DNA from: Escherichia phage UPEC06 | Direction: 5' to 3' (one strand) | Length of the DNA: 64,000 bases | Sequence record: MW250786 | Part shown: positions 26,914-39,320 of the stretch, in pieces | Layout: every line of letters begins with the position of its first letter | How positions within the stretch are numbered: position 1 is the stretch's first letter | Program-made: the position numbers and the translations under genes | Notes under the pieces: generated by a model | Told to the model about the DNA's origin: nothing | Seen by the model: the letters and a program-made list of their open reading frames with translations, nothing else | The model's database searches: none

Positions 26914-27501
26914 TCAAGGACGTTTTGGTGGACTAACGACACCTTTTTTAGATAAAGGTAATTCGTCTGCATCTTTTCCACGAAGAGATTCTAGCCACTC
27001 ATCTAAAGACAGGGGTACTTTACCATCACCTTTGGACCACACAGACAAGCAATACAGATCGTATGCAGATGGACCTCGATCACCTTTGTCACCATTCGGC
27101 CCTTTTAAGCTCTCCAACCAATCCTTTTCGTTCAGTGGGATAGCACCTGGATCTTCTTGATGAAGAACTCTTAGGTATGTTTCATAAGCAGACTCTCCAC
27201 GAGGACCCATTTGACCCTTCTCACCTTGTGGCCCTTTTGCATAATCTGCGTACTTAGATTCCAGATATGCAGACTTCACACCTTCAGGGGCAACGGAAAC
27301 CTTATACAATGACCAAGCTAACAGAGCTATCCAACAAGCAAACAGTGCAAGCGGATAAGGGATCATTGAAGTAAAGAATGACAGAGCTAAAATTACAACC
27401 TTGTTCTTGTGATTACGACGGAAAGCGATGATCACAGGGGCTAACCAGATAGCAAAGATAACCCACGCAGATAAGATAAACAACCAACTAATGTATTCCA
27501 T
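26914..27501 (-). CDS. membrane protein with two collagen-like/SAY repeats
   Basis: N-terminal hydrophobic segments; duplicated unit KGPxGxKGxxGPxxxSAY...PLxxxxWLESLxG. Confidence 0.45.
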   Translation of the reverse strand: MEYISWLFILSAWVIFAIWLAPVIIAFRRNHKNKVVILALSFFTSMIPYPLALFACWIALLAWSLYKVSVAPEGVKSAYLESKYADYAKGPQGEKGQMGPRGESAYETYLRVLHQEDPGAIPLNEKDWLESLKGPNGDKGDRGPSAYDLYCLSVWSKGDGKVPLSLDEWLESLRGKDADELPLSKKGVVSPPKRP

Positions 27502-27689
27502 TAAGCCTCCTCGGTATCGTCTTTAAAGTAATCTAACATCCAACTTTCTACAGGGGTTGCATAGTAACCCGTTCGACCTTTCTTTTGAAACTCCATGATA
27601 ATTTCATTTGCAATACCTTTTGTGATTGCGATCCCGATCAGTGCACCACCAGGTCCCATTACTGCATGTGAACTAAGATCATTACTCAT
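27501..27689 (-). CDS. hypothetical small protein
   Basis: ORF in operon. Confidence 0.35.
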   Translation of the reverse strand: MSNDLSSHAVMGPGGALIGIAITKGIANEIIMEFQKKGRTGYYATPVESWMLDYFKDDTEEA

Positions 27690-27981
27690 TTTTAACCCCC
27701 TTCATTTTATCTCTTAAACTTTGAGCATCCCACGTATAACCTGAGGAGATACCTTTTTCACGTTCACTATCTTTGAACTTGCAAATTACAGATTTTGCTT
27801 CACCATCAACAACAACCGCATAACTGTTGTAATAATTGTGTTGCTTCTTGCAAAATTCGTGTAACTCCTTAACCTCTATTGGCATCAGAGAAGGTAGATT
27901 TTTGTATCGCTTTGTCTGATCATCTTCACCATCTCCGCAACCAACAAGAAGAAGTATACATAAAATGATTAACCTTTTCAA
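27682..27981 (-). CDS. predicted lipoprotein
   Basis: Signal peptide with lipobox LLVGC. Confidence 0.45.
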   Translation of the reverse strand: MKRLIILCILLLVGCGDGEDDQTKRYKNLPSLMPIEVKELHEFCKKQHNYYNSYAVVVDGEAKSVICKFKDSEREKGISSGYTWDAQSLRDKMKGVKNE

Positions 27982-28129
27982 TAGCTACCCCCAAAATATT
28001 TTGTAATCTCTACTGCAAATATTGTCCCAAGTATAAACCATGTGGCACTTAGTACGTTGAAGGGTAAAAACCTTGATCCTGTAAGAGAAACCATAATGAA
28101 AAACGTTACAAAAATCTCTGGAGAAATCA

Positions 28130-28531
28130 TCATTGTTTGATAGTCCCCTTGGCGATCATCTCGTCAAGTTCATCTTCCGCACGACACATAATCTGATAGA
28201 TAGTCTCTGGATTGTTTAAGAATTCTGTGTACTTTTTGATACGACAAACTAAACGTGCACGAACTTTACGCTCACGGGCCACATGATTAAAGTAATGTCC
28301 CTTTTGTCTGTAGATCCAAGCATAATATACAGTTTTTGCTCTATTGCGATCACAACCTAAACGTTCAGCCAACAGAGTGTAAGGGTCATTATTAGTGGGA
28401 CCAAACAAAAATATTTCTGCAAAACTTTCCTTCATGATACGAGATTCTTCATCCGTGATTCGCGGACATTCTTCAGAACCGTAGCGTGGGGTTTTAGTGG
28501 CATTTGGCTTCTTAGGGTATACTTTACGCAT
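28130..28531 (-). CDS. hypothetical protein
   Basis: ORF with GAGGAG RBS. Confidence 0.45.
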   Translation of the reverse strand: MRKVYPKKPNATKTPRYGSEECPRITDEESRIMKESFAEIFLFGPTNNDPYTLLAERLGCDRNRAKTVYYAWIYRQKGHYFNHVARERKVRARLVCRIKKYTEFLNNPETIYQIMCRAEDELDEMIAKGTIKQ

Positions 28532-28598
28532 TTCATCACTCCTCTAATTAAAACTCTTACTCCCGATGTGAGGAGCCTTTCGGCCCCTCTCTTAAATA

Positions 28599-29207
28599 TC
28601 AATCACAACTACTTGAAGAACTACTGCTGCTACTGTCAGAAGAATAACTATCATATGATGATGAGCTATCATACGAACTTGATCGACTTGAAGAACAGTA
28701 AGAACTTGAACTACTTGTACGATCTTCACTGGAGGACATTACAGCAGCATACGTTGCCACACCACCTAAAGCTGCCACCTGAGGATCAACCTGGCTAGTT
28801 CCATATCCATTTGGAGAGTCGCTCATCTTACGTGGTGCTGCCCGACGTGCCTGATCAATATACTGTCGCTTTGCCTTCGGCGGTAATTTCTTACCTTGAG
28901 CATAGGACGGTAATTCAACGCCCTTCAGTTGTTCATTCAAAGGTTTCGGCGGTGTAGCCTGTGATTTTGGTCGTTCAACAGAGATATCAACAACCTTCAT
29001 CGTCTTATCCTTGATGTTTACCCCAACCAGTACTTCATTTTCTTTTAATGGCTTTTCAAGATCGCGTGTTTCAACTGGACCAAATTTAACGCTTGCAGTT
29101 TCCTGACGTTGTTCGGCCTGCTTTGCAATATATTTGTCGATCGCCGCAGTTTCTACTTCCAGCGGAATAAACAGTGATTTTACCCAAGCAACAAACTTCT
29201 TGATCAT
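28599..29207 (-). CDS. hypothetical protein with poly-Ser C-terminal tail
   Basis: C-terminal ~45 residues are almost entirely Ser with interspersed Tyr/Asp. Confidence 0.45.
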   Translation of the reverse strand: MIKKFVAWVKSLFIPLEVETAAIDKYIAKQAEQRQETASVKFGPVETRDLEKPLKENEVLVGVNIKDKTMKVVDISVERPKSQATPPKPLNEQLKGVELPSYAQGKKLPPKAKRQYIDQARRAAPRKMSDSPNGYGTSQVDPQVAALGGVATYAAVMSSSEDRTSSSSSYCSSSRSSSYDSSSSYDSYSSDSSSSSSSSSCD

Positions 29208-29428: not shown

Positions 29429-29714
29429 TATTCGGATTCAGTTTCTTTTCTGCGGTCTTCAAAATAATATCCAGCTTTTCAATTTCCTTATGTAAAGGCT
29501 CAGATAATAACTTCTCACCAAAAAGCCAGAATTTCTTCATGCCTTTCTTAACGCACTTCCCCATAAAGCCCGCGAGGTCTTCTAGTCGCCAAGCGATAAA
29601 ACTAAATATTGCAGCTAAAAGGTGAATCACGGCCAGCAGTAAACGATGTGGGTTTAGTACAGCAAGGCACAGGATCATAAAGATTATTTTAGTAAATCCC
29701 CAAATAATTTTCAT
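29397..29714 (-). CDS. small membrane protein
   Basis: Two hydrophobic segments. Confidence 0.35.
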   Translation of the reverse strand: MKIIWGFTKIIFMILCLAVLNPHRLLLAVIHLLAAIFSFIAWRLEDLAGFMGKCVKKGMKKFWLFGEKLLSEPLHKEIEKLDIILKTAEKKLNPNNVDKGEDDGV

Positions 29715-30097
29715 TCGTAATTAATCTCCACTTTAACAATTTCACCAGTTTTATCATTGAATACTTCAATGTCATAGTATTCAACAATGCCTTCATCATC
29801 AAAAGAACTTTTTTGTTTGCAAGGTGATACCCAAAAACCGTGGATTACTGCCTCCTCAAGTCCGTCGGTATGTGATACAACACTCAATGTCGGGTAAGGA
29901 ACCATAATAGGTTTTACCTCACCACAACCACACGTACAGCAAAATACTTCATCTTCTTCCAGTTGGTACAATCGCTTTTCTGGAACAAAGGTCAGATGCG
30001 CCAAAGGATATTTAGAGACGATAGCATTAATATAAGGTTTTCCTGCCAAGCTGTCAATAAATTCATTAAACTCTTTTCTATTTTTTGATAAACTCAT
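29711..30097 (-). CDS. hypothetical Cys-rich protein
   Basis: CCTCGCG cluster. Confidence 0.4.
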   Translation of the reverse strand: MSLSKNRKEFNEFIDSLAGKPYINAIVSKYPLAHLTFVPEKRLYQLEEDEVFCCTCGCGEVKPIMVPYPTLSVVSHTDGLEEAVIHGFWVSPCKQKSSFDDEGIVEYYDIEVFNDKTGEIVKVEINYE

Positions 30098-32738: not shown

Positions 32739-33113
32739 TTACGCTAGGTTAAAGGTAGCTTTAATCAAGTCTACGGTTTCTTGTGCATTACTACGAGAGA
32801 CGGCAACTTGAACGATAACAGGATCTTCATCTTCCCCGACTTCTTTAAAGAAGGGAAATTCACTCTCTGCAAGTTCAAAGTATACACCCTTGTTACATTC
32901 GCAGCCGTGAAGACTGTCACTACCTAAAGTACCATCTTCAAATATGACATTGTTAACGTATGTAACATTATCATAAACGTGGGTGGTGTTGACAACAAAT
33001 TTAGGACCGTGTTTATAAAGAAGGTCAGCCAATTCTTGATTGTAGCTAGGGTCCATATTGATAAAAGCTTTTTCTAAGTCTTGATTAAGAATGTAAGTTT
33101 TTCCGATTTCCAT
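32739..33113 (-). CDS. hypothetical protein, paralog family member 1
   Basis: MEIGKTYILNQ...NAQETVDLIKATFNL; start at 33113 with GAGGAG (track start 33200 is too far upstream). Confidence 0.5.
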   Translation of the reverse strand: MEIGKTYILNQDLEKAFINMDPSYNQELADLLYKHGPKFVVNTTHVYDNVTYVNNVIFEDGTLGSDSLHGCECNKGVYFELAESEFPFFKEVGEDEDPVIVQVAVSRSNAQETVDLIKATFNLA

Positions 33114-33192
33114 CTTTGTTCTCCTCTTCAGTTGATGGATACATCTTAGTTGATGTGGATATGTCTTGTCAATAGCTTTTTGCACATAAAAG

Positions 33193-33218
33193 AAAACCAC
33201 CCCGAAGGGTGGTTTAAA
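33193..33218 (-). terminator. intrinsic terminator downstream of DNA polymerase gene
   Basis: On - strand: AACCACCC-TTCG-GGGTGGTT followed by TTCTTTT. Confidence 0.55.
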
Positions 33219-33221
33219 TTA

Positions 33222-35852
33222 TCAGTGGCACGCCCCCCAGTTCATCCCTGTGAGGTATTCACCTGTTATGTGTACAGGAGATTTCATCATTCGTGCTGCT
33301 TGCTCTACACAACGAACAACCATCTCTCCAACTGGACAATACATGATCGTGTAGATTCCATTCTCATCAGGATCACACTTAAACTTCCCTTCTTTCACAC
33401 AATGACCATCCAAGATCATTTTCTTAGCCAAGCAAGCTTCTACAAATTTCTTCGCGTCAGCTTCGTTGTCAAAGGTCCAAGTCTTCTTGAACTTGTGCGG
33501 CACTTCAAGCTGGTATTCATCATGATAGTAAATGATACGGCGAACACCCTCATCATACCAACCTTTCTTGACCAACTGCCAGTGCAGGAGGATACCCACC
33601 AAGTCAAACAGTGCAGCACCACCATTCTGCTGATAAGCATTAAGCAATGAGTGTTTGGAACGAGTGTAGATCTTACGTCCATCAAGACCGTAGATGAATC
33701 GCTTACCGTTAGCTTCCCAAAACTTCTCTAATGCTTCTTTACGACCTTTCAAGCCGATGTTGCTATCCCAGAATGCGTCGATTACTGCCTGGGCTTTCTC
33801 AAGAGTGATTCCCAGCATTGATGCAATCTTCGCCGCCTGCGCCCCGTACATGATTCCGTATGTCACGCCTTTACCTTCACCACGAGAAACCTTCTTCCCT
33901 GCCGCTTTGGTATACGCTTCTGCGTTTCGGGAGTGAGCATCTCCAGATTCCATGATACGAAGATAAGCGCCACCATCGAAATCATACGCGCCCCATGCCG
34001 CGATCATACCTTCCAAGTTTGAACCGTCGATACCTACCTGATATTTACCCTCGGAGGCTCTAAACAGTTCACGCATCTCTTTACCGAGAAGAACTTTCTC
34101 ATCCGGCTTAGGTACGTTTGCTACGATCGTATGCTTACGACGACCTGTGTTAGTTATTCCACTATAACGGGCCGGAAGTTTACCGTCAACCCGTAGACGT
34201 GGATGGTTAAGCCATCCGGTATCAACCTTCTCTTCTTTCAGTGGGTCAAGAACAGATCGTCGGTTACGTAAAGACAGCCATTTAACAATCTGTTTAGCCA
34301 TTTCACCATCTACTCGCTCAAGGTTAGGGCAAAGACCCTGCTGATCCTTAAGTTGTGGAGATGTTGGTAATGCACGGGCTTTCTTACGGAAGAACTTGAA
34401 CATCTTTTCTTTATCGGACCACTGTTTAGGGGTGATCGATAAGCTTTTCAGAATCAGATCACGATACTCCGTCTGATCCAAATCTTCAATATATTGACGA
34501 ACAATCAGGTCAACCTCACTATCTGGACGTTGTTTCTTGAACTGATCTTTAGTTGCATCCTTTGTACGCCAAATTGTTGGAATCCACCCTGCATCACGGA
34601 TCAGGAACTTCTTAACGTCGTCCTGGTTACCAATACGCATCGGGATCATAATGTCCGGCATCTTTTGTTCTTTGATATCCATCAAAGCACGAGCCATATC
34701 TTCCGGCGGCAAAGGAACAAGCCCTTGCTGCTTAACGTTTTGTGCACGGATAAAATCACCCATTTTGGATTCATCTTCTACACCGTGTTCAACACAATAC
34801 TTGATCGCGGCGGCAGTAAGAGATCCGTCAGCCTTAAACGGCTTACTTGGTGCACCTTTAAACTCTAATGCTTCCCAATTGATATTATAACCTAACTTCT
34901 CTAACCATTTCCAACCTGTACCGGAAAGAGATCCATCACCCTTGAAAGGCTTAGATGGGAATGTCGGTTGTGCTGATTTCGACATTTCTTTCTTCGGTAA
35001 CTTAGGTTCAACCTCTAACTCAATGTCTGTCATCATCTTATCGATACGATCACGGAGCTTGAGTGCTTTTTCTTCATCAAATGAAACACCCTGAATCTCT
35101 TGCTCAATCATCAGGTAGTCGGTCAGCATACCTCGACGCAAGGCATTCTTCCAGTTGATCATTTTAAACTTCTTCTGATCTTTGTCTGTTTCATCCTTAA
35201 ACATGAAGCGTTTATCATCGGGCATGGATTCACAAGAGATCTCTTTCATCAGAGCATCCCACACCATTTCGTTGATAATTACGTCTTCAATAATACGATC
35301 GCAATATTTCCAAAGTGGAAGGCCACGCCAATCTTCAATCGCCACTTTCTGGTTGGCTACTCGCATACCCCAAGCTTCAAGCCCGTGAGGGCCTACAGGC
35401 TTCATTTTACCTGTGACTGGGTTCTTTACCATCTCGGGACAACCACGAGGCAGAGGGCGATCTGGATACAATGTACGAGACATTGACAGTGTATCAAAGA
35501 TGGTCACTTGTTTACCATTAATCGTACCCATGCAACCAGGGTCTGCAAACATATCGTAAGTTGTTCCAAGCATCTTCTTAAACAACTGGAGGTCGTAGCC
35601 GAAGATGTTGTGGATAGCAATTGCCTTAGGCTCTGTGACAAACCATTCGTTTAATTCTTCAATAGTGCGAATCTTAAAGTTTTTACCTTTAGATTGGATA
35701 AATTTAACAGCTTGATCGTAACCTTCCCGTTGGGGATCAAGAAAGATGTTCCAGTTATCTTTTTTATACTCTTTAAACAGGACGCAGTGAATGAGATCAA
35801 CCTCTGTCAACAGGCCGTTAGCTTCCGCATCTCCAATAAATAAGCCTTTCAT
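33222..35852 (-). CDS. family A DNA polymerase with 3'-5' exonuclease domain
   Basis: Exo motif FIGDAEANGL; pol motif A DGSNLEGMI, motif B KGVTYGIMYGAQ, motif C YYHDEY; start at 35852 with AAGGAGA. Confidence 0.85.
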   Translation of the reverse strand: MKGLFIGDAEANGLLTEVDLIHCVLFKEYKKDNWNIFLDPQREGYDQAVKFIQSKGKNFKIRTIEELNEWFVTEPKAIAIHNIFGYDLQLFKKMLGTTYDMFADPGCMGTINGKQVTIFDTLSMSRTLYPDRPLPRGCPEMVKNPVTGKMKPVGPHGLEAWGMRVANQKVAIEDWRGLPLWKYCDRIIEDVIINEMVWDALMKEISCESMPDDKRFMFKDETDKDQKKFKMINWKNALRRGMLTDYLMIEQEIQGVSFDEEKALKLRDRIDKMMTDIELEVEPKLPKKEMSKSAQPTFPSKPFKGDGSLSGTGWKWLEKLGYNINWEALEFKGAPSKPFKADGSLTAAAIKYCVEHGVEDESKMGDFIRAQNVKQQGLVPLPPEDMARALMDIKEQKMPDIMIPMRIGNQDDVKKFLIRDAGWIPTIWRTKDATKDQFKKQRPDSEVDLIVRQYIEDLDQTEYRDLILKSLSITPKQWSDKEKMFKFFRKKARALPTSPQLKDQQGLCPNLERVDGEMAKQIVKWLSLRNRRSVLDPLKEEKVDTGWLNHPRLRVDGKLPARYSGITNTGRRKHTIVANVPKPDEKVLLGKEMRELFRASEGKYQVGIDGSNLEGMIAAWGAYDFDGGAYLRIMESGDAHSRNAEAYTKAAGKKVSRGEGKGVTYGIMYGAQAAKIASMLGITLEKAQAVIDAFWDSNIGLKGRKEALEKFWEANGKRFIYGLDGRKIYTRSKHSLLNAYQQNGGAALFDLVGILLHWQLVKKGWYDEGVRRIIYYHDEYQLEVPHKFKKTWTFDNEADAKKFVEACLAKKMILDGHCVKEGKFKCDPDENGIYTIMYCPVGEMVVRCVEQAARMMKSPVHITGEYLTGMNWGACH

Positions 35853-35925
35853 TTTTTCTCCTTCTTTAAACTCCAACTAGACTAAAACAAAGCCCAGCCG
35901 GAGGTATTACCCTTCGGCTAGGTTA

Positions 35926-38603: not shown

Positions 38604-39320
38604 TTATTTGTTGTATTGATAAATTGCTTCAGCCAAGCCCCGTGGGGTTAATGACCGGATCATCTTAGTTCTTGCTGACTTACCCCCCAACTTATTCTGC
38701 TGATCTGACCAACCAGGTGCAACAGGAACCGGAGAGGTTTTTGGAATTATAAACCCATTCCCTGTCCAAAGTCCAGTCTTTTTAGGATAAGCATCCCGTG
38801 GTTTAATGTACTGAGGAAAATAAGGGTTAACATCATTTACCGGAAGATAACCACCATATTCCCAAGGGTTGAAATATACCGTAGGCTTTCGCCATTGTCC
38901 AGCTAAAACACTAACGGGGTTCTCGATCATGTAAGGACAATCAAAAACAAATTCCGCAAGCCAAGCTGCAATCTTTGCAGTTCTTACCGCCTTGATCTGG
39001 AAGAAAGGATCTTTTGCTTTCTTTGATGCAAAGTGACGCGAACCACTGACAGCCATATCAGTACATGGAGGGTAGGCAAGGATCAGGTCCGGTGATGGCA
39101 ATCCTAAGTTCTCTACATTTTCCATCCATTCAATATCGATAAAAGCGTTAACGTAAGTGATGTTGGGATGAATTTCCTTTACACCTTCATAATCCCCGTG
39201 ATCAGCATCGTCATAGTTGAAGCAGTAGCATTTGTGCCCTGCCTTCGCCCAGGGAAGAACATCAATCCCTGAACCAGAAAAGAGACTCCAGATAATCTTT
39301 TTATTCATCGTAGCATCCAA
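38604..39320 (-). CDS. C5-cytosine DNA methyltransferase-like catalytic-domain protein (short, no obvious target-recognition domain)
   Basis: Motif I-like LFSGSG, motif IV-like PPC, motif VI-like IENP, QWRK; only 238 aa. Confidence 0.4.
   Translation of the reverse strand: MDATMNKKIIWSLFSGSGIDVLPWAKAGHKCYCFNYDDADHGDYEGVKEIHPNITYVNAFIDIEWMENVENLGLPSPDLILAYPPCTDMAVSGSRHFASKKAKDPFFQIKAVRTAKIAAWLAEFVFDCPYMIENPVSVLAGQWRKPTVYFNPWEYGGYLPVNDVNPYFPQYIKPRDAYPKKTGLWTGNGFIIPKTSPVPVAPGWSDQQNKLGGKSARTKMIRSLTPRGLAEAIYQYNK

What the first reader, a model, noticed from the sequence alone, without database searches (positions are those of the whole stretch)
28599..29207. Protein with a ~45-residue poly-Ser C-terminal tail
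The C-terminus is almost pure Ser with periodic Tyr/Asp (SSSYCSSSRSSSYDSSSSYDSYSSDSSSSSSSSS). Such tracts are unusual in phage proteins; they could be phosphorylation or glycosylation substrates or disordered linkers, and the underlying repeat is prone to slippage.
Basis: seen in the sequence. Interest (0 to 1): 0.35.

Follow-up and report, generated by a model that had tools for sequence, protein, structure and literature searches.

The report
Conserved serine-rich tail on phage protein
A small, non-virion phage protein of unknown function really does end in a serine-rich, disordered tail. The tail is not a slippery DNA repeat: it is held constant by selection, is bracketed by two cysteines, ends in Cys-Asp, and recurs in other large enterobacterial phages.

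Summary
ORF 28599..29207 (-) encodes 202 aa, and 30 of its last 45 residues are Ser.

- **Origin:** the window comes from a Septuagintavirus (Vequintavirinae) E. coli phage. The protein belongs to PHROG 13005, function unknown.
- **Not slippage-prone:** the tail uses six different Ser codons and TRF finds no tandem repeat. Its length is identical in all six close relatives, and pN/pS is 0.06 in the tail against 0.08 in the body. The slippage idea is not supported.
- **A conserved motif, not plain poly-Ser:** all 77 full-length homologues carry SY[D/S/T/E/G] units. 74 of 77 have exactly two Cys, both near the C-terminus, and 75 of 77 end in S-C-D.
- **Shared with another family:** the same ending (SYDSG...SSSSCD) closes the DUF7206 / PHROG 13684 proteins of T4-like Karamvirus and Muldoonvirus phages.
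- **Structure and location:** AlphaFold2 predicts the tail to be disordered. The orthologue is absent from the W70 virion proteome.
- **Dispensability:** natural in-frame deletions and one nonsense mutant show the tail is not needed for viability.
- **Best reading (inferred):** an early or middle accessory protein, tethered to the membrane by an N-terminal amphipathic helix. A mildly acidic disordered tail presents a Cys-Asp tip or folds back on a +9 basic motif.

Phosphorylation and glycosylation could not be tested. Interest is modest.

The parts
28599..29207 (-). CDS, 202 aa, member of PHROG 13005 (unknown function). Orthologue of W70_98, A73_112, A71_142 and A54_257.
29169..29204 (-). aa 2-13, IKKFVAWVKSLF: N-terminal amphipathic helix, a putative membrane-targeting sequence. 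Nearly invariant in the family. Remote tail-bearing proteins have a true TM helix here instead.
28974..29093 (-). aa 39-78: predicted three-stranded beta-sheet, the only well-predicted part (pLDDT about 85). This region is variable or absent in several family members.
28827..28970 (-). aa 80-127: conserved basic motif TPPKPL.EQLKGVELP.YA.GK.LPPKAKRQ.I.QA, net charge +9. It is the most conserved part of the family.
28737..28787 (-). aa 141-157, DPQVAALGGVATYAAVM: short hydrophobic segment flanked by acidic residues. Too short and too weakly hydrophobic to be a TM helix (Kyte-Doolittle 19-residue mean 1.0).
28602..28736 (-). aa 158-202: Ser/Tyr/Asp-rich disordered tail, the subject of the finding. 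30 of 45 residues are Ser.
28695..28697 (-). Cys171, the first of the two cysteines that bracket the tract.
28602..28607 (-). Cys201-Asp202 at the C-terminus. 75 of 77 homologues end in S-C-D.
28570..28589 (-). 8-bp hairpin with a GAAA tetraloop, 10 nt after the stop codon. Certreviruses have a GGGGGC-UUCG-GCCCCC hairpin at the same place. It is probably a weak terminator or an mRNA-stabilising structure.

Best explanation
The ORF encodes a non-structural accessory protein of a Septuagintavirus phage. It lies in the leftward early/middle gene cluster, about 4 kb downstream of the DNA polymerase gene. Apart from one small beta-sheet, the protein is mostly disordered and is built from short conserved motifs.

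Shown here:
- The Ser-rich tract is a selectively maintained, disordered C-terminal tail.
- In this genus it is a Ser-expanded version of a family-wide module. The module consists of SY[D/S/T/E/G] units lying between two cysteines, the second of which is always the penultimate residue, so the protein ends in S-C-D.
- The same ending closes the DUF7206 proteins of T4-like phages.

Inferred:
- The N-terminal amphipathic helix, which is a true TM helix in remote relatives, tethers the protein to the cytoplasmic face of the inner membrane.
- The flexible, mildly acidic tail (net -4 over aa 158-202) acts as a spacer that presents the Cys-Asp tip to a partner, a metal ion or a second copy of the protein.
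- Alternatively or additionally, the tail folds back on the +9 basic motif and masks it, as the acidic tails of phage and bacterial ssDNA-binding proteins do.
- The target is something conserved in Enterobacterales and is useful but not essential to the phage.
For: - Real gene under purifying selection, tail included: pN/pS 0.06 in the tail against 0.08 in the body, with no indel among six orthologues.
- Family membership: PHROG 13005, E=5e-42.
- Family-wide tail features among 77 homologues: all 77 have SY[DSTEG] units (median 5), 74 have exactly two Cys, both within the last ~50 aa, and 75 end in SCD. The consensus ending is S-Y-D-S-G-S-S-x-S-S-C-D.
- The ending is shared with DUF7206/PHROG 13684 proteins of Karamvirus and Muldoonvirus. 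The window tail hits phrog_13684 at E=8e-5. hhalign gives 98% probability, E=1e-13, over the last 20 columns. The sequences were read directly. Chimeric proteins P0081 and P0093 carry the core motifs of both families.
- Disorder: pLDDT below 50 for nearly all of aa 148-200.
- Non-virion: W70_98 is absent from the 28 proteins identified by mass spectrometry in W70 virions (PMC11370258).
- N-terminal helix: muH 0.59 and <H> 0.31, with only 2.8% of shuffles matching it. No TM segment is present. Remote tail-bearing proteins P0100, P0101 and P0105 have a TM helix followed by K/R residues, which indicates a C-in topology.
- Charge polarity is conserved: the basic motif carries +5 to +13 and the tail -1 to -5 in all 77 homologues.
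- Genomic context: all relatives sit among replication, nucleotide-metabolism or early genes of large lytic phages.
Against: - No experiment, solved structure or annotated homologue bears on function. Pfam, NCBIfam, PADLOC, PDB sequence and BFVD fold searches found nothing informative.
- The membrane tether, the tip-docking idea and the fold-back idea are inferences from sequence pattern only.
- The tail is only mildly acidic (-4), much less so than SSB-type tails.
- The module is dispensable in nature. In-frame deletions in P0038 (48 contig blocks) and P0080 remove the tail. A TGT>TGA nonsense mutation in DU_PP_I and DU_PP_IV removes the Cys-Asp.
- Low complexity can inflate profile scores, so the remote tail-only matches (P0097-P0106) are weak evidence.
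Confidence: 0.4

Rival explanations
1. The tail is a substrate for post-translational modification (Ser/Tyr phosphorylation or O-glycosylation). Modification would make it a strongly anionic or bulky tail, and the modified form would be the active one.
For: The tail has a very high density of hydroxyl residues with neighbouring Asp: 30 Ser and 4 Tyr in 45 aa. It is disordered and therefore accessible. Conservation of Ser and Tyr identity under purifying selection fits a substrate role.
Against: No kinase or glycosyltransferase is adjacent. No neighbouring gene is shared between the Vequintavirinae and T4-like loci that carry the tail. From general knowledge, E. coli has few Ser/Thr/Tyr kinases and no general O-glycosylation system. 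The rest of the phage genome was not screened for such enzymes.
Confidence: 0.15
2. The two conserved cysteines, together with neighbouring Asp, Glu and Tyr, form a metal-binding or redox site. Possible forms are a Zn or Fe clasp between two chains, or a disulfide that closes the S/Y/D loop. On this view the Ser-rich stretch is only the variable loop between the ligands.
For: 74 of 77 proteins have exactly two Cys and none elsewhere. One Cys is always penultimate and the other lies 11-55 residues from the C-terminus, next to acidic residues (EEC in 62 of 77; C-D at the end). DUF7206 proteins have SCDSG...SCD, which is two Cys-Asp pairs.
Against: The loop length is highly variable, from about 5 to 47 residues. 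The DU_PP_I phages lost the terminal Cys and are viable. No known metal-binding motif or fold matched. The predicted cytoplasmic location argues against a disulfide.
Confidence: 0.2
3. The tail is a sticker-and-spacer low-complexity domain, with Tyr stickers every 4-6 residues in Ser/Asp/Gly spacers, like FUS-type [S/G]Y[S/G] regions. It would drive self-association or condensation of the membrane-tethered protein.
For: SY[DSTEG] units are present in 77 of 77 homologues (median 5 per protein). The Tyr-Tyr spacing peaks at 5 residues. The tail is predicted disordered.
Against: The tail is short. The window protein has only 4 Tyr in its tail, and the Septuagintavirus tail has replaced the last YDSG unit by plain Ser. 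This model does not explain the invariant Cys-Asp terminus.
Confidence: 0.1
4. The tract is a slippage-prone simple-sequence repeat that works as a contingency or phase-variable locus, or it is a neutral low-complexity expansion without function.
For: Tail length differs between genera, from 11 to 55 aa measured from the first Cys to the end. Two independent in-frame deletions have their junctions in Ser codons.
Against: TRF finds no tandem repeat. Six Ser codons are interleaved, and the longest perfect trinucleotide run is 3 units. There is no length change among six orthologues with pS up to 0.29. Tail pN/pS is 0.06. The terminal motif is conserved at 41-56% overall identity.
Confidence: 0.04

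Closest known systems
PHROG 13005: hypothetical proteins of Septuagintavirus and Certrevirus phages (W70_98, A73_112, CR3_041, phiTE_004, CR9_041, OMEGA_42 and others)
   Same: The match runs over the full length (E=5e-42). Identity is 95-98% to Septuagintavirus orthologues and 41-56% to the Certrevirus and SSBI34 proteins. They share the N-terminal helix, the basic LPPKAKRQF motif, the S/Y/D tail, the SCD ending and the gene neighbourhood.
   Different: The Septuagintavirus tail is richer in Ser (69% against a family median of 56%). It lacks the EEC context of the first Cys. It also replaces the last YDSGSS unit with a run of nine Ser.
Pfam DUF7206 (PF23836) / PHROG 13684: small early-region proteins of T4-like Karamvirus (CC31p023, PG7) and Muldoonvirus (Muldoon gp020, PS2_021)
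   Same: Both have an MIK..h..LF-type N-terminus and a C-terminus of the form ...SSYDSG(S)YDSG.SSSSCD. hhalign gives 98% probability, E=1e-13, over the last 20 columns. Both lie among early or replication genes. Chimeric proteins P0081 and P0093 link the two families.
   Different: The window protein does not score against the DUF7206 model (no Pfam hit at E<=1). It lacks the E[YW][VIM]YMGDGMMEEV core motif. DUF7206 proteins lack the LPPKAKRQF motif and have much shorter tails, and the Karamvirus tails are not poly-Ser.
Acidic disordered C-terminal tails of ssDNA-binding proteins (E. coli SSB, T7 gp2.5, T4 gp32). Recalled from general knowledge, not tested here.
   Same: Both have a disordered low-complexity stretch followed by a conserved tip at the very C-terminus, on a protein that also has a strongly basic region. 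Both are found in a replication-gene context. The T4 gp32 tail is also Ser/Asp-rich (recalled from memory).
   Different: No OB fold or any DNA-binding domain was detected. The tail is only mildly acidic (-4). The tip is Cys-Asp rather than an acidic run ending in Phe or Leu. This is an analogy of mechanism, not membership.
Membrane-targeting amphipathic helices of MinD and FtsA. Sequences recalled from memory.
   Same: A short Lys-rich amphipathic helix with an h..K.LF pattern. Its hydrophobic moment (0.59) is comparable to the value computed for the FtsA helix (0.57).
   Different: The helix here is at the N-terminus, whereas in MinD and FtsA it is at the C-terminus. Membrane binding was not tested.
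Serine-rich and Ser-Asp repeat surface glycoproteins of Gram-positive bacteria (SRRPs, Sdr/Clf). Recalled from general knowledge.
   Same: Long Ser-rich low-complexity regions with Asp.
   Different: Those proteins are secreted, wall-anchored and built from regular dipeptide repeats that dedicated enzymes glycosylate. The window protein has no signal peptide, no LPXTG motif, no regular repeat, no DNA tandem repeat and no adjacent glycosyltransferase.

Membership tests
PHROG 13005 (phage protein family, unknown function) | Significant full-length match to the family profile | tested here: met
   E=5.2e-42; residues 1-200 of 202 align to profile positions 1-217 of 230.
PHROG 13005 (phage protein family, unknown function) | Shared motifs and synteny with the Certrevirus homologues | tested here: met
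   The N-terminal helix, the LPPKAK motif and the SCD ending are invariant or nearly so. The same 71-74 aa gene lies upstream and the same 133-142 aa gene lies downstream.
Pfam DUF7206 (PF23836) | Score above the gathering threshold against the Pfam model | tested here: not met
   No Pfam family at E<=1 for the window protein. Only the chimeric relative P0081 scores (65 bits).
Pfam DUF7206 (PF23836) | Core motif E[YW][VIM]YMGDG[MT][MV]E | tested here: not met
   The motif is absent from the window protein and from the A3 consensus. It is present in 7 of the 10 A5 members, including all the Karamvirus and Muldoonvirus proteins.
Pfam DUF7206 (PF23836) | C-terminal SYDSG...SCD ending | tested here: met
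   phrog_13684 matches residues 161-202 (E=8.3e-5). hhalign gives 98% probability over the last 20 columns.
Simple-sequence contingency locus (slippage-prone repeat) | Perfect or near-perfect tandem DNA repeat | tested here: not met
   TRF returns 0 arrays at score >=30. Six Ser codons are mixed, and the longest perfect trinucleotide run is 3 units.
Simple-sequence contingency locus (slippage-prone repeat) | Length polymorphism among close relatives | tested here: not met
   All six Septuagintavirus genes are 609 nt with no indel.
SSB-type acidic C-terminal tail (functional analogy) | OB-fold or other ssDNA-binding domain on the same protein | tested here: not met
   No Pfam, PDB or BFVD match. 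AF2 shows only a three-stranded sheet plus helices.
SSB-type acidic C-terminal tail (functional analogy) | Disordered linker followed by a conserved C-terminal tip that binds partner proteins | tested here: inconclusive
   Disorder and an invariant tip are shown. Partner binding cannot be tested with these tools.
Ser-rich / SD-repeat glycoproteins | Signal peptide, wall anchor and dedicated glycosyltransferases | tested here: not met
   There is no hydrophobic signal or TM segment (maximum Kyte-Doolittle 19-residue mean 1.33). None of the ten neighbouring genes is a glycosyltransferase.
Virion structural protein | Detection in purified virions | tested here: not met
   The orthologue W70_98 is not among the 28 virion proteins identified by ESI-MS/MS (PMC11370258).

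The most novel reading that the evidence does not exclude
The 'Cys-bracketed S/Y/D tail ending in Cys-Asp-COOH' is an undescribed portable tail module, effectively a short linear motif. Unrelated large lytic phages of Enterobacterales (Vequintavirinae, T4-like Karamvirus and Muldoonvirus, and several metagenomic lineages) attach it to membrane-tethered early proteins. Its role would be to engage one conserved host target or a metal ion at the inner membrane.
Probability: 0.25. Interest if true: 0.55.

Novelty: new member of a known kind. Interest (0 to 1): 0.3.

Why it matters
In itself this is one more hypothetical accessory protein, 95-98% identical to proteins already deposited. Its value is as a lead. 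The tail looks like junk low complexity, yet it is as constrained as the rest of the protein and carries a precise signature: two cysteines and a Cys-Asp terminus. That signature recurs in early proteins of a different phage family. If the tail is a portable interaction or metal-binding module, it would give a handle on several PHROG and DUF families that have no known function. It would also point to a host process at the inner membrane that large enterobacterial phages manipulate. Natural deletion and nonsense variants already provide ready-made comparison strains.

Tried and rejected
**Annotation searches that found nothing useful**
- Pfam, NCBIfam and PADLOC scans of the protein gave nothing. 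Pfam and PHROG scans of the ten neighbouring genes gave no informative family.
- A PDB sequence search with the family profile and with the tail alone gave nothing.
- A fold search of the AF2 model against BFVD returned only the protein itself, A0A8T8L740. The model is too disordered for fold comparison.

**Literature**
- Searches for DUF7206, the PHROG ids, locus tags, polyserine + bacteriophage, serine-rich + phage, and Certrevirus transcriptomes found nothing on function.

**Other checks**
- An exact-sequence cluster look-up of the window protein found it absent from the collection.
- I looked for a partner gene shared between the Vequintavirinae and T4-like loci and found none.
- No tRNA gene lies in the window, so a link between tRNA-Ser supply and the tail could not be examined.

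**Ideas considered and dropped for lack of any supporting enzyme or motif**
- A RiPP or lanthipeptide precursor.
- A siderophore-microcin-like Ser-rich C-terminus.
- A spanin. Only a weak Rz-like hit (E=0.005) appeared, and in one remote protein, P0101.
- A protease degron.
- A functional overlapping antisense ORF at 28568..28798 (+). The selection pattern fits the minus frame.

Full report
**Observation.** The minus-strand ORF 28599..29207 encodes 202 aa. It has an AAGGAG ribosome-binding site, and its ATG overlaps the stop codon of the upstream 74-aa gene as ATGA. The last 45 residues are SSSEDRTSSSSSYCSSSRSSSYDSSSSYDSYSSDSSSSSSSSSCD: 30 Ser, 5 Asp, 4 Tyr, 2 Cys, 2 Arg, 1 Glu and 1 Thr. Ser makes up 6.5% of the window's ORFs, so the chance of 30 or more in 45 is about 3e-25. 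No other ORF of 100 aa or more in the window exceeds 12 Ser in any 45-aa stretch.

**Where the window comes from.** The 2-kb region is 90-96% identical to five E. coli phages: A7_1, vB_EcoM-LTH01, A73, W70 and A5-4. These belong to the genus Septuagintavirus, subfamily Vequintavirinae. The gene lies in a run of small co-oriented genes. This run sits between the end of the rightward tail and tail-fibre module and a family A DNA polymerase gene at 33222..35876. That places it in the leftward early/middle replication-side cluster. An 8-bp hairpin with a GAAA tetraloop follows the gene. Certreviruses carry a GGGGGC-UUCG-GCCCCC hairpin at the same position.

**Is it a slippery repeat?** No.
- The 30 tail serines use six codons: AGT 12, TCA 7, TCT 5, AGC 3, TCC 2 and TCG 1.
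- Tandem Repeats Finder reports nothing even at score 30.
- The longest perfect trinucleotide run is three units. The longest repeated k-mer is 11 nt, no different from codon-permuted controls.
- All six Septuagintavirus orthologues are exactly 609 nt.
- Thirteen tail codons vary among the six orthologues. Ten of the changes are synonymous and three are conservative replacements (Y170H, S173P, D180E).
- Pooled pN/pS is 0.06 in the tail against 0.08 in the body, and pS reaches 0.29 in the tail.

The amino-acid sequence and the length of the tail are therefore held by purifying selection as tightly as the rest of the protein.

**The family.**
- The protein matches PHROG 13005 (unknown function) over its full length (E=5e-42) and matches no Pfam family.
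- tblastn finds it in only 31 of 50,697 phage records: Septuagintavirus, Certrevirus (CR3, CR8, CR9, phiTE, CB7, POP15, KaOmega, F1M1E and others) and Salmonella phage SSBI34. It is absent from rV5-like and PVP-SE1-like Vequintavirinae, so it is an accessory gene.
- The large protein database holds 82 clusters at 90% identity.
- An exhaustive profile search of 1.84 billion representatives finds 35.
- In 77 full-length sequences (alignment A3) the conserved parts are these:
  - the N-terminus, M(I/F)KKFVAWVKALF;
  - a basic motif, TPPKPLNEQLKGVELPAYAKGKTLPPKAKRQFIKQAK, with net charge +5 to +13;
  - a short hydrophobic segment flanked by acidic residues, DPVNAALYGYAAATILSDD;
  - the tail.

**What the tail really is.**
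- Across the family the tail is 11-55 aa from the first Cys to the end, and 26-71% Ser.
- In the CR9 group it is not poly-Ser at all (PSYTPSYDSTPSYSSPSYDSPSSYDGGYSGGSCD).
- Constant features:
  - SY[D/S/T/E/G] units occur in 77 of 77 sequences, with a median of 5 and a modal Tyr-Tyr spacing of 5.
  - 74 of 77 proteins have exactly two cysteines and none elsewhere.
  - One Cys opens the tract, usually in a VEEC context, and one is always the penultimate residue.
  - 75 of 77 sequences end in S-C-D.
  - The consensus for the last twelve residues is S-Y-D-S-G-S-S-(S/Y)-S-S-C-D.
- The nine-Ser run of the window protein is a genus-level elaboration of this motif.

**The same ending on another family.**
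- The window tail also hits PHROG 13684 (E=8e-5).
- A distant homologue, P0081, scores against Pfam DUF7206 (PF23836) at 65 bits.
- DUF7206 proteins are 100-140-aa products of T4-like Karamvirus (CC31p023, PG7, KMB19) and Muldoonvirus (Muldoon gp020, PS2_021). They are encoded in the early region between the dCTPase/soc genes and the modA/srd/dda genes.
- They start with an MIK..h..LF-type helix. They end in, for example...SSSSSSSYDSGSYDSGCSSSSSCD (Muldoon) or ...TSYIDSPSNTSCDSSGGFTCD (KMB19).
- Profile-profile comparison aligns the last 20 columns of the two families at 98% probability, E=1e-13.
- Chimeras P0081 and P0093 contain both the LPPKAKRQF motif and the YVYMGDGMMEEV core of DUF7206.
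- The window protein itself fails the DUF7206 model and lacks its core motif. It shares the tail module but is not a member.
- Weaker tail-only matches (P0097-P0106) end in CD, CDSGC, WD or FD. Some begin with a true TM helix followed by K/R residues, which indicates a C-in topology.
- These remote proteins sit among replication or nucleotide-metabolism genes of other large phages. Two sit beside membrane-stress genes: PspA plus an ion channel, and Band_7.
- Because low complexity can inflate such scores, I treat these remote matches only as hints.

**Structure and location.**
- With the 77-sequence alignment, AlphaFold2 gives a mean pLDDT of 60.
- It predicts helices at 3-12, 20-34 and 110-122, and a three-stranded sheet at 39-78 (pLDDT about 85).
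- Confidence is below 50 for nearly all of 128-200, so the tail is predicted disordered.
- The N-terminal 12-mer is amphipathic: muH 0.59 and <H> 0.31, with 2.8% of shuffles reaching that moment. The protein has no TM segment.
- The W70 orthologue (W70_98) is not among the 28 virion proteins found by mass spectrometry (PMC11370258).

**Dispensability.**
- Two independent lineages carry clean in-frame deletions that remove the hydrophobic segment and the whole tract but still end in S-C-D. These are P0038 (128 aa, seen in 48 contig blocks, junction within Ser codons) and P0080 (134 aa).
- Pectobacterium phages DU_PP_I and DU_PP_IV have a TGT>TGA nonsense change at the penultimate Cys codon, with the old GAT TAA still downstream.
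- The module is therefore not essential for propagation. The phenotypes of these variants are unknown.

**Interpretation.**
- Shown: a real, selected, disordered tail with a precise Cys...Cys-Asp signature, shared between two phage protein families, on a non-virion protein in an early/replication-side cluster.
- Inferred: the protein is tethered to the cytoplasmic face of the inner membrane by its N-terminal helix. The tail serves as a flexible, mildly acidic spacer that presents the Cys-Asp tip to a partner, a metal ion or a second chain. It may also mask the +9 motif, by analogy with the acidic tails of SSB, T7 gp2.5 and T4 gp32 (general knowledge; no OB fold was found here).
- Rivals, which are not mutually exclusive: a modification substrate (untestable here, and no enzyme lies nearby), a metal or redox site formed by the two cysteines, and Tyr-sticker self-association.
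- The slippage or neutral-repeat reading is rejected by the codon, length and pN/pS data.

**Verdict.** The finding is real but modest. It is a new member of an already catalogued, uncharacterised phage family. The conserved Cys-bracketed, Cys-Asp-terminated tail shared with DUF7206 proteins is the one point worth an experiment.

Noticed in passing
window 26914..27501 (-): A 195-aa protein with two N-terminal TM helices. It gives weak hits to superinfection-immunity families (Pfam Imm_superinfect E=6.5e-4; PHROG 1039 E=2e-5). These are fused to a collagen-like G-X-Y stretch that matches tail-fibre and tail-assembly PHROGs. This is an odd combination of domains.
   Followed up: partly
window 27682..27981 (-) and 27978..28133 (-): The 99-aa product starts with a lipoprotein-type signal (MKRLIILCILLLVGC) and belongs to PHROG 15849, function unknown. 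The overlapping 51-aa product looks like a two-TM peptide (PHROG 22594). Together with the gene at 26914 this makes a small cluster of envelope proteins just downstream of the Ser-tail gene.
   Followed up: partly
window 28570..28589 (-); L006 about 2205-2220; L033 1056-1071: A stable tetraloop hairpin lies directly after the Ser-tail gene in both genera: a GAAA loop in the window and GGGGGC-UUCG-GCCCCC in Certrevirus. The site is conserved while the sequence differs, and no clear U-tract follows.
   Followed up: partly
L033 1036-1048 (Pectobacterium phage DU_PP_I): The homologue ends ...TCG TCC TGA GAT TAA. This is a TGT>TGA nonsense change at the conserved penultimate Cys, with the ancestral Asp and stop codons still in place. 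It could be a real loss of the Cys-Asp tip or a sequencing error.
   Followed up: partly
L017 3001-3387 (P0038) and L032 1501-1905 (P0080): Two independent in-frame deletions remove about 100 and about 60-70 residues of the homologue but keep the S-C-D ending and the downstream hairpin. P0038 is seen in 48 contig blocks, all from SRR1567xxxx runs in the three loci shown.
   Followed up: yes
L030/L031 2332-4483; L020 4145-5516: Remote tail-bearing proteins sit next to membrane-stress or scaffold genes in other large phages. P0104 follows a PspA_IM30 gene and an ion-channel gene. P0100 follows a Band_7/SPFH gene directly.
   Followed up: no
window 32739..33200 (-), 33222..35876 (-), 38604..39320 (-): An FRD2-family protein, a family A DNA polymerase and a C5 cytosine methylase-like protein lie upstream in the same leftward cluster. 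No tRNA gene is found anywhere in the 64-kb window.
   Followed up: no
window 30029..30057 (-): The best sigma-70-like promoter match in the region (TTGACA-17-TATATT, 11 of 12) lies inside the 128-aa gene at 29711..30097, about 0.8 kb upstream of the Ser-tail gene. This is a consensus match only.
   Followed up: no
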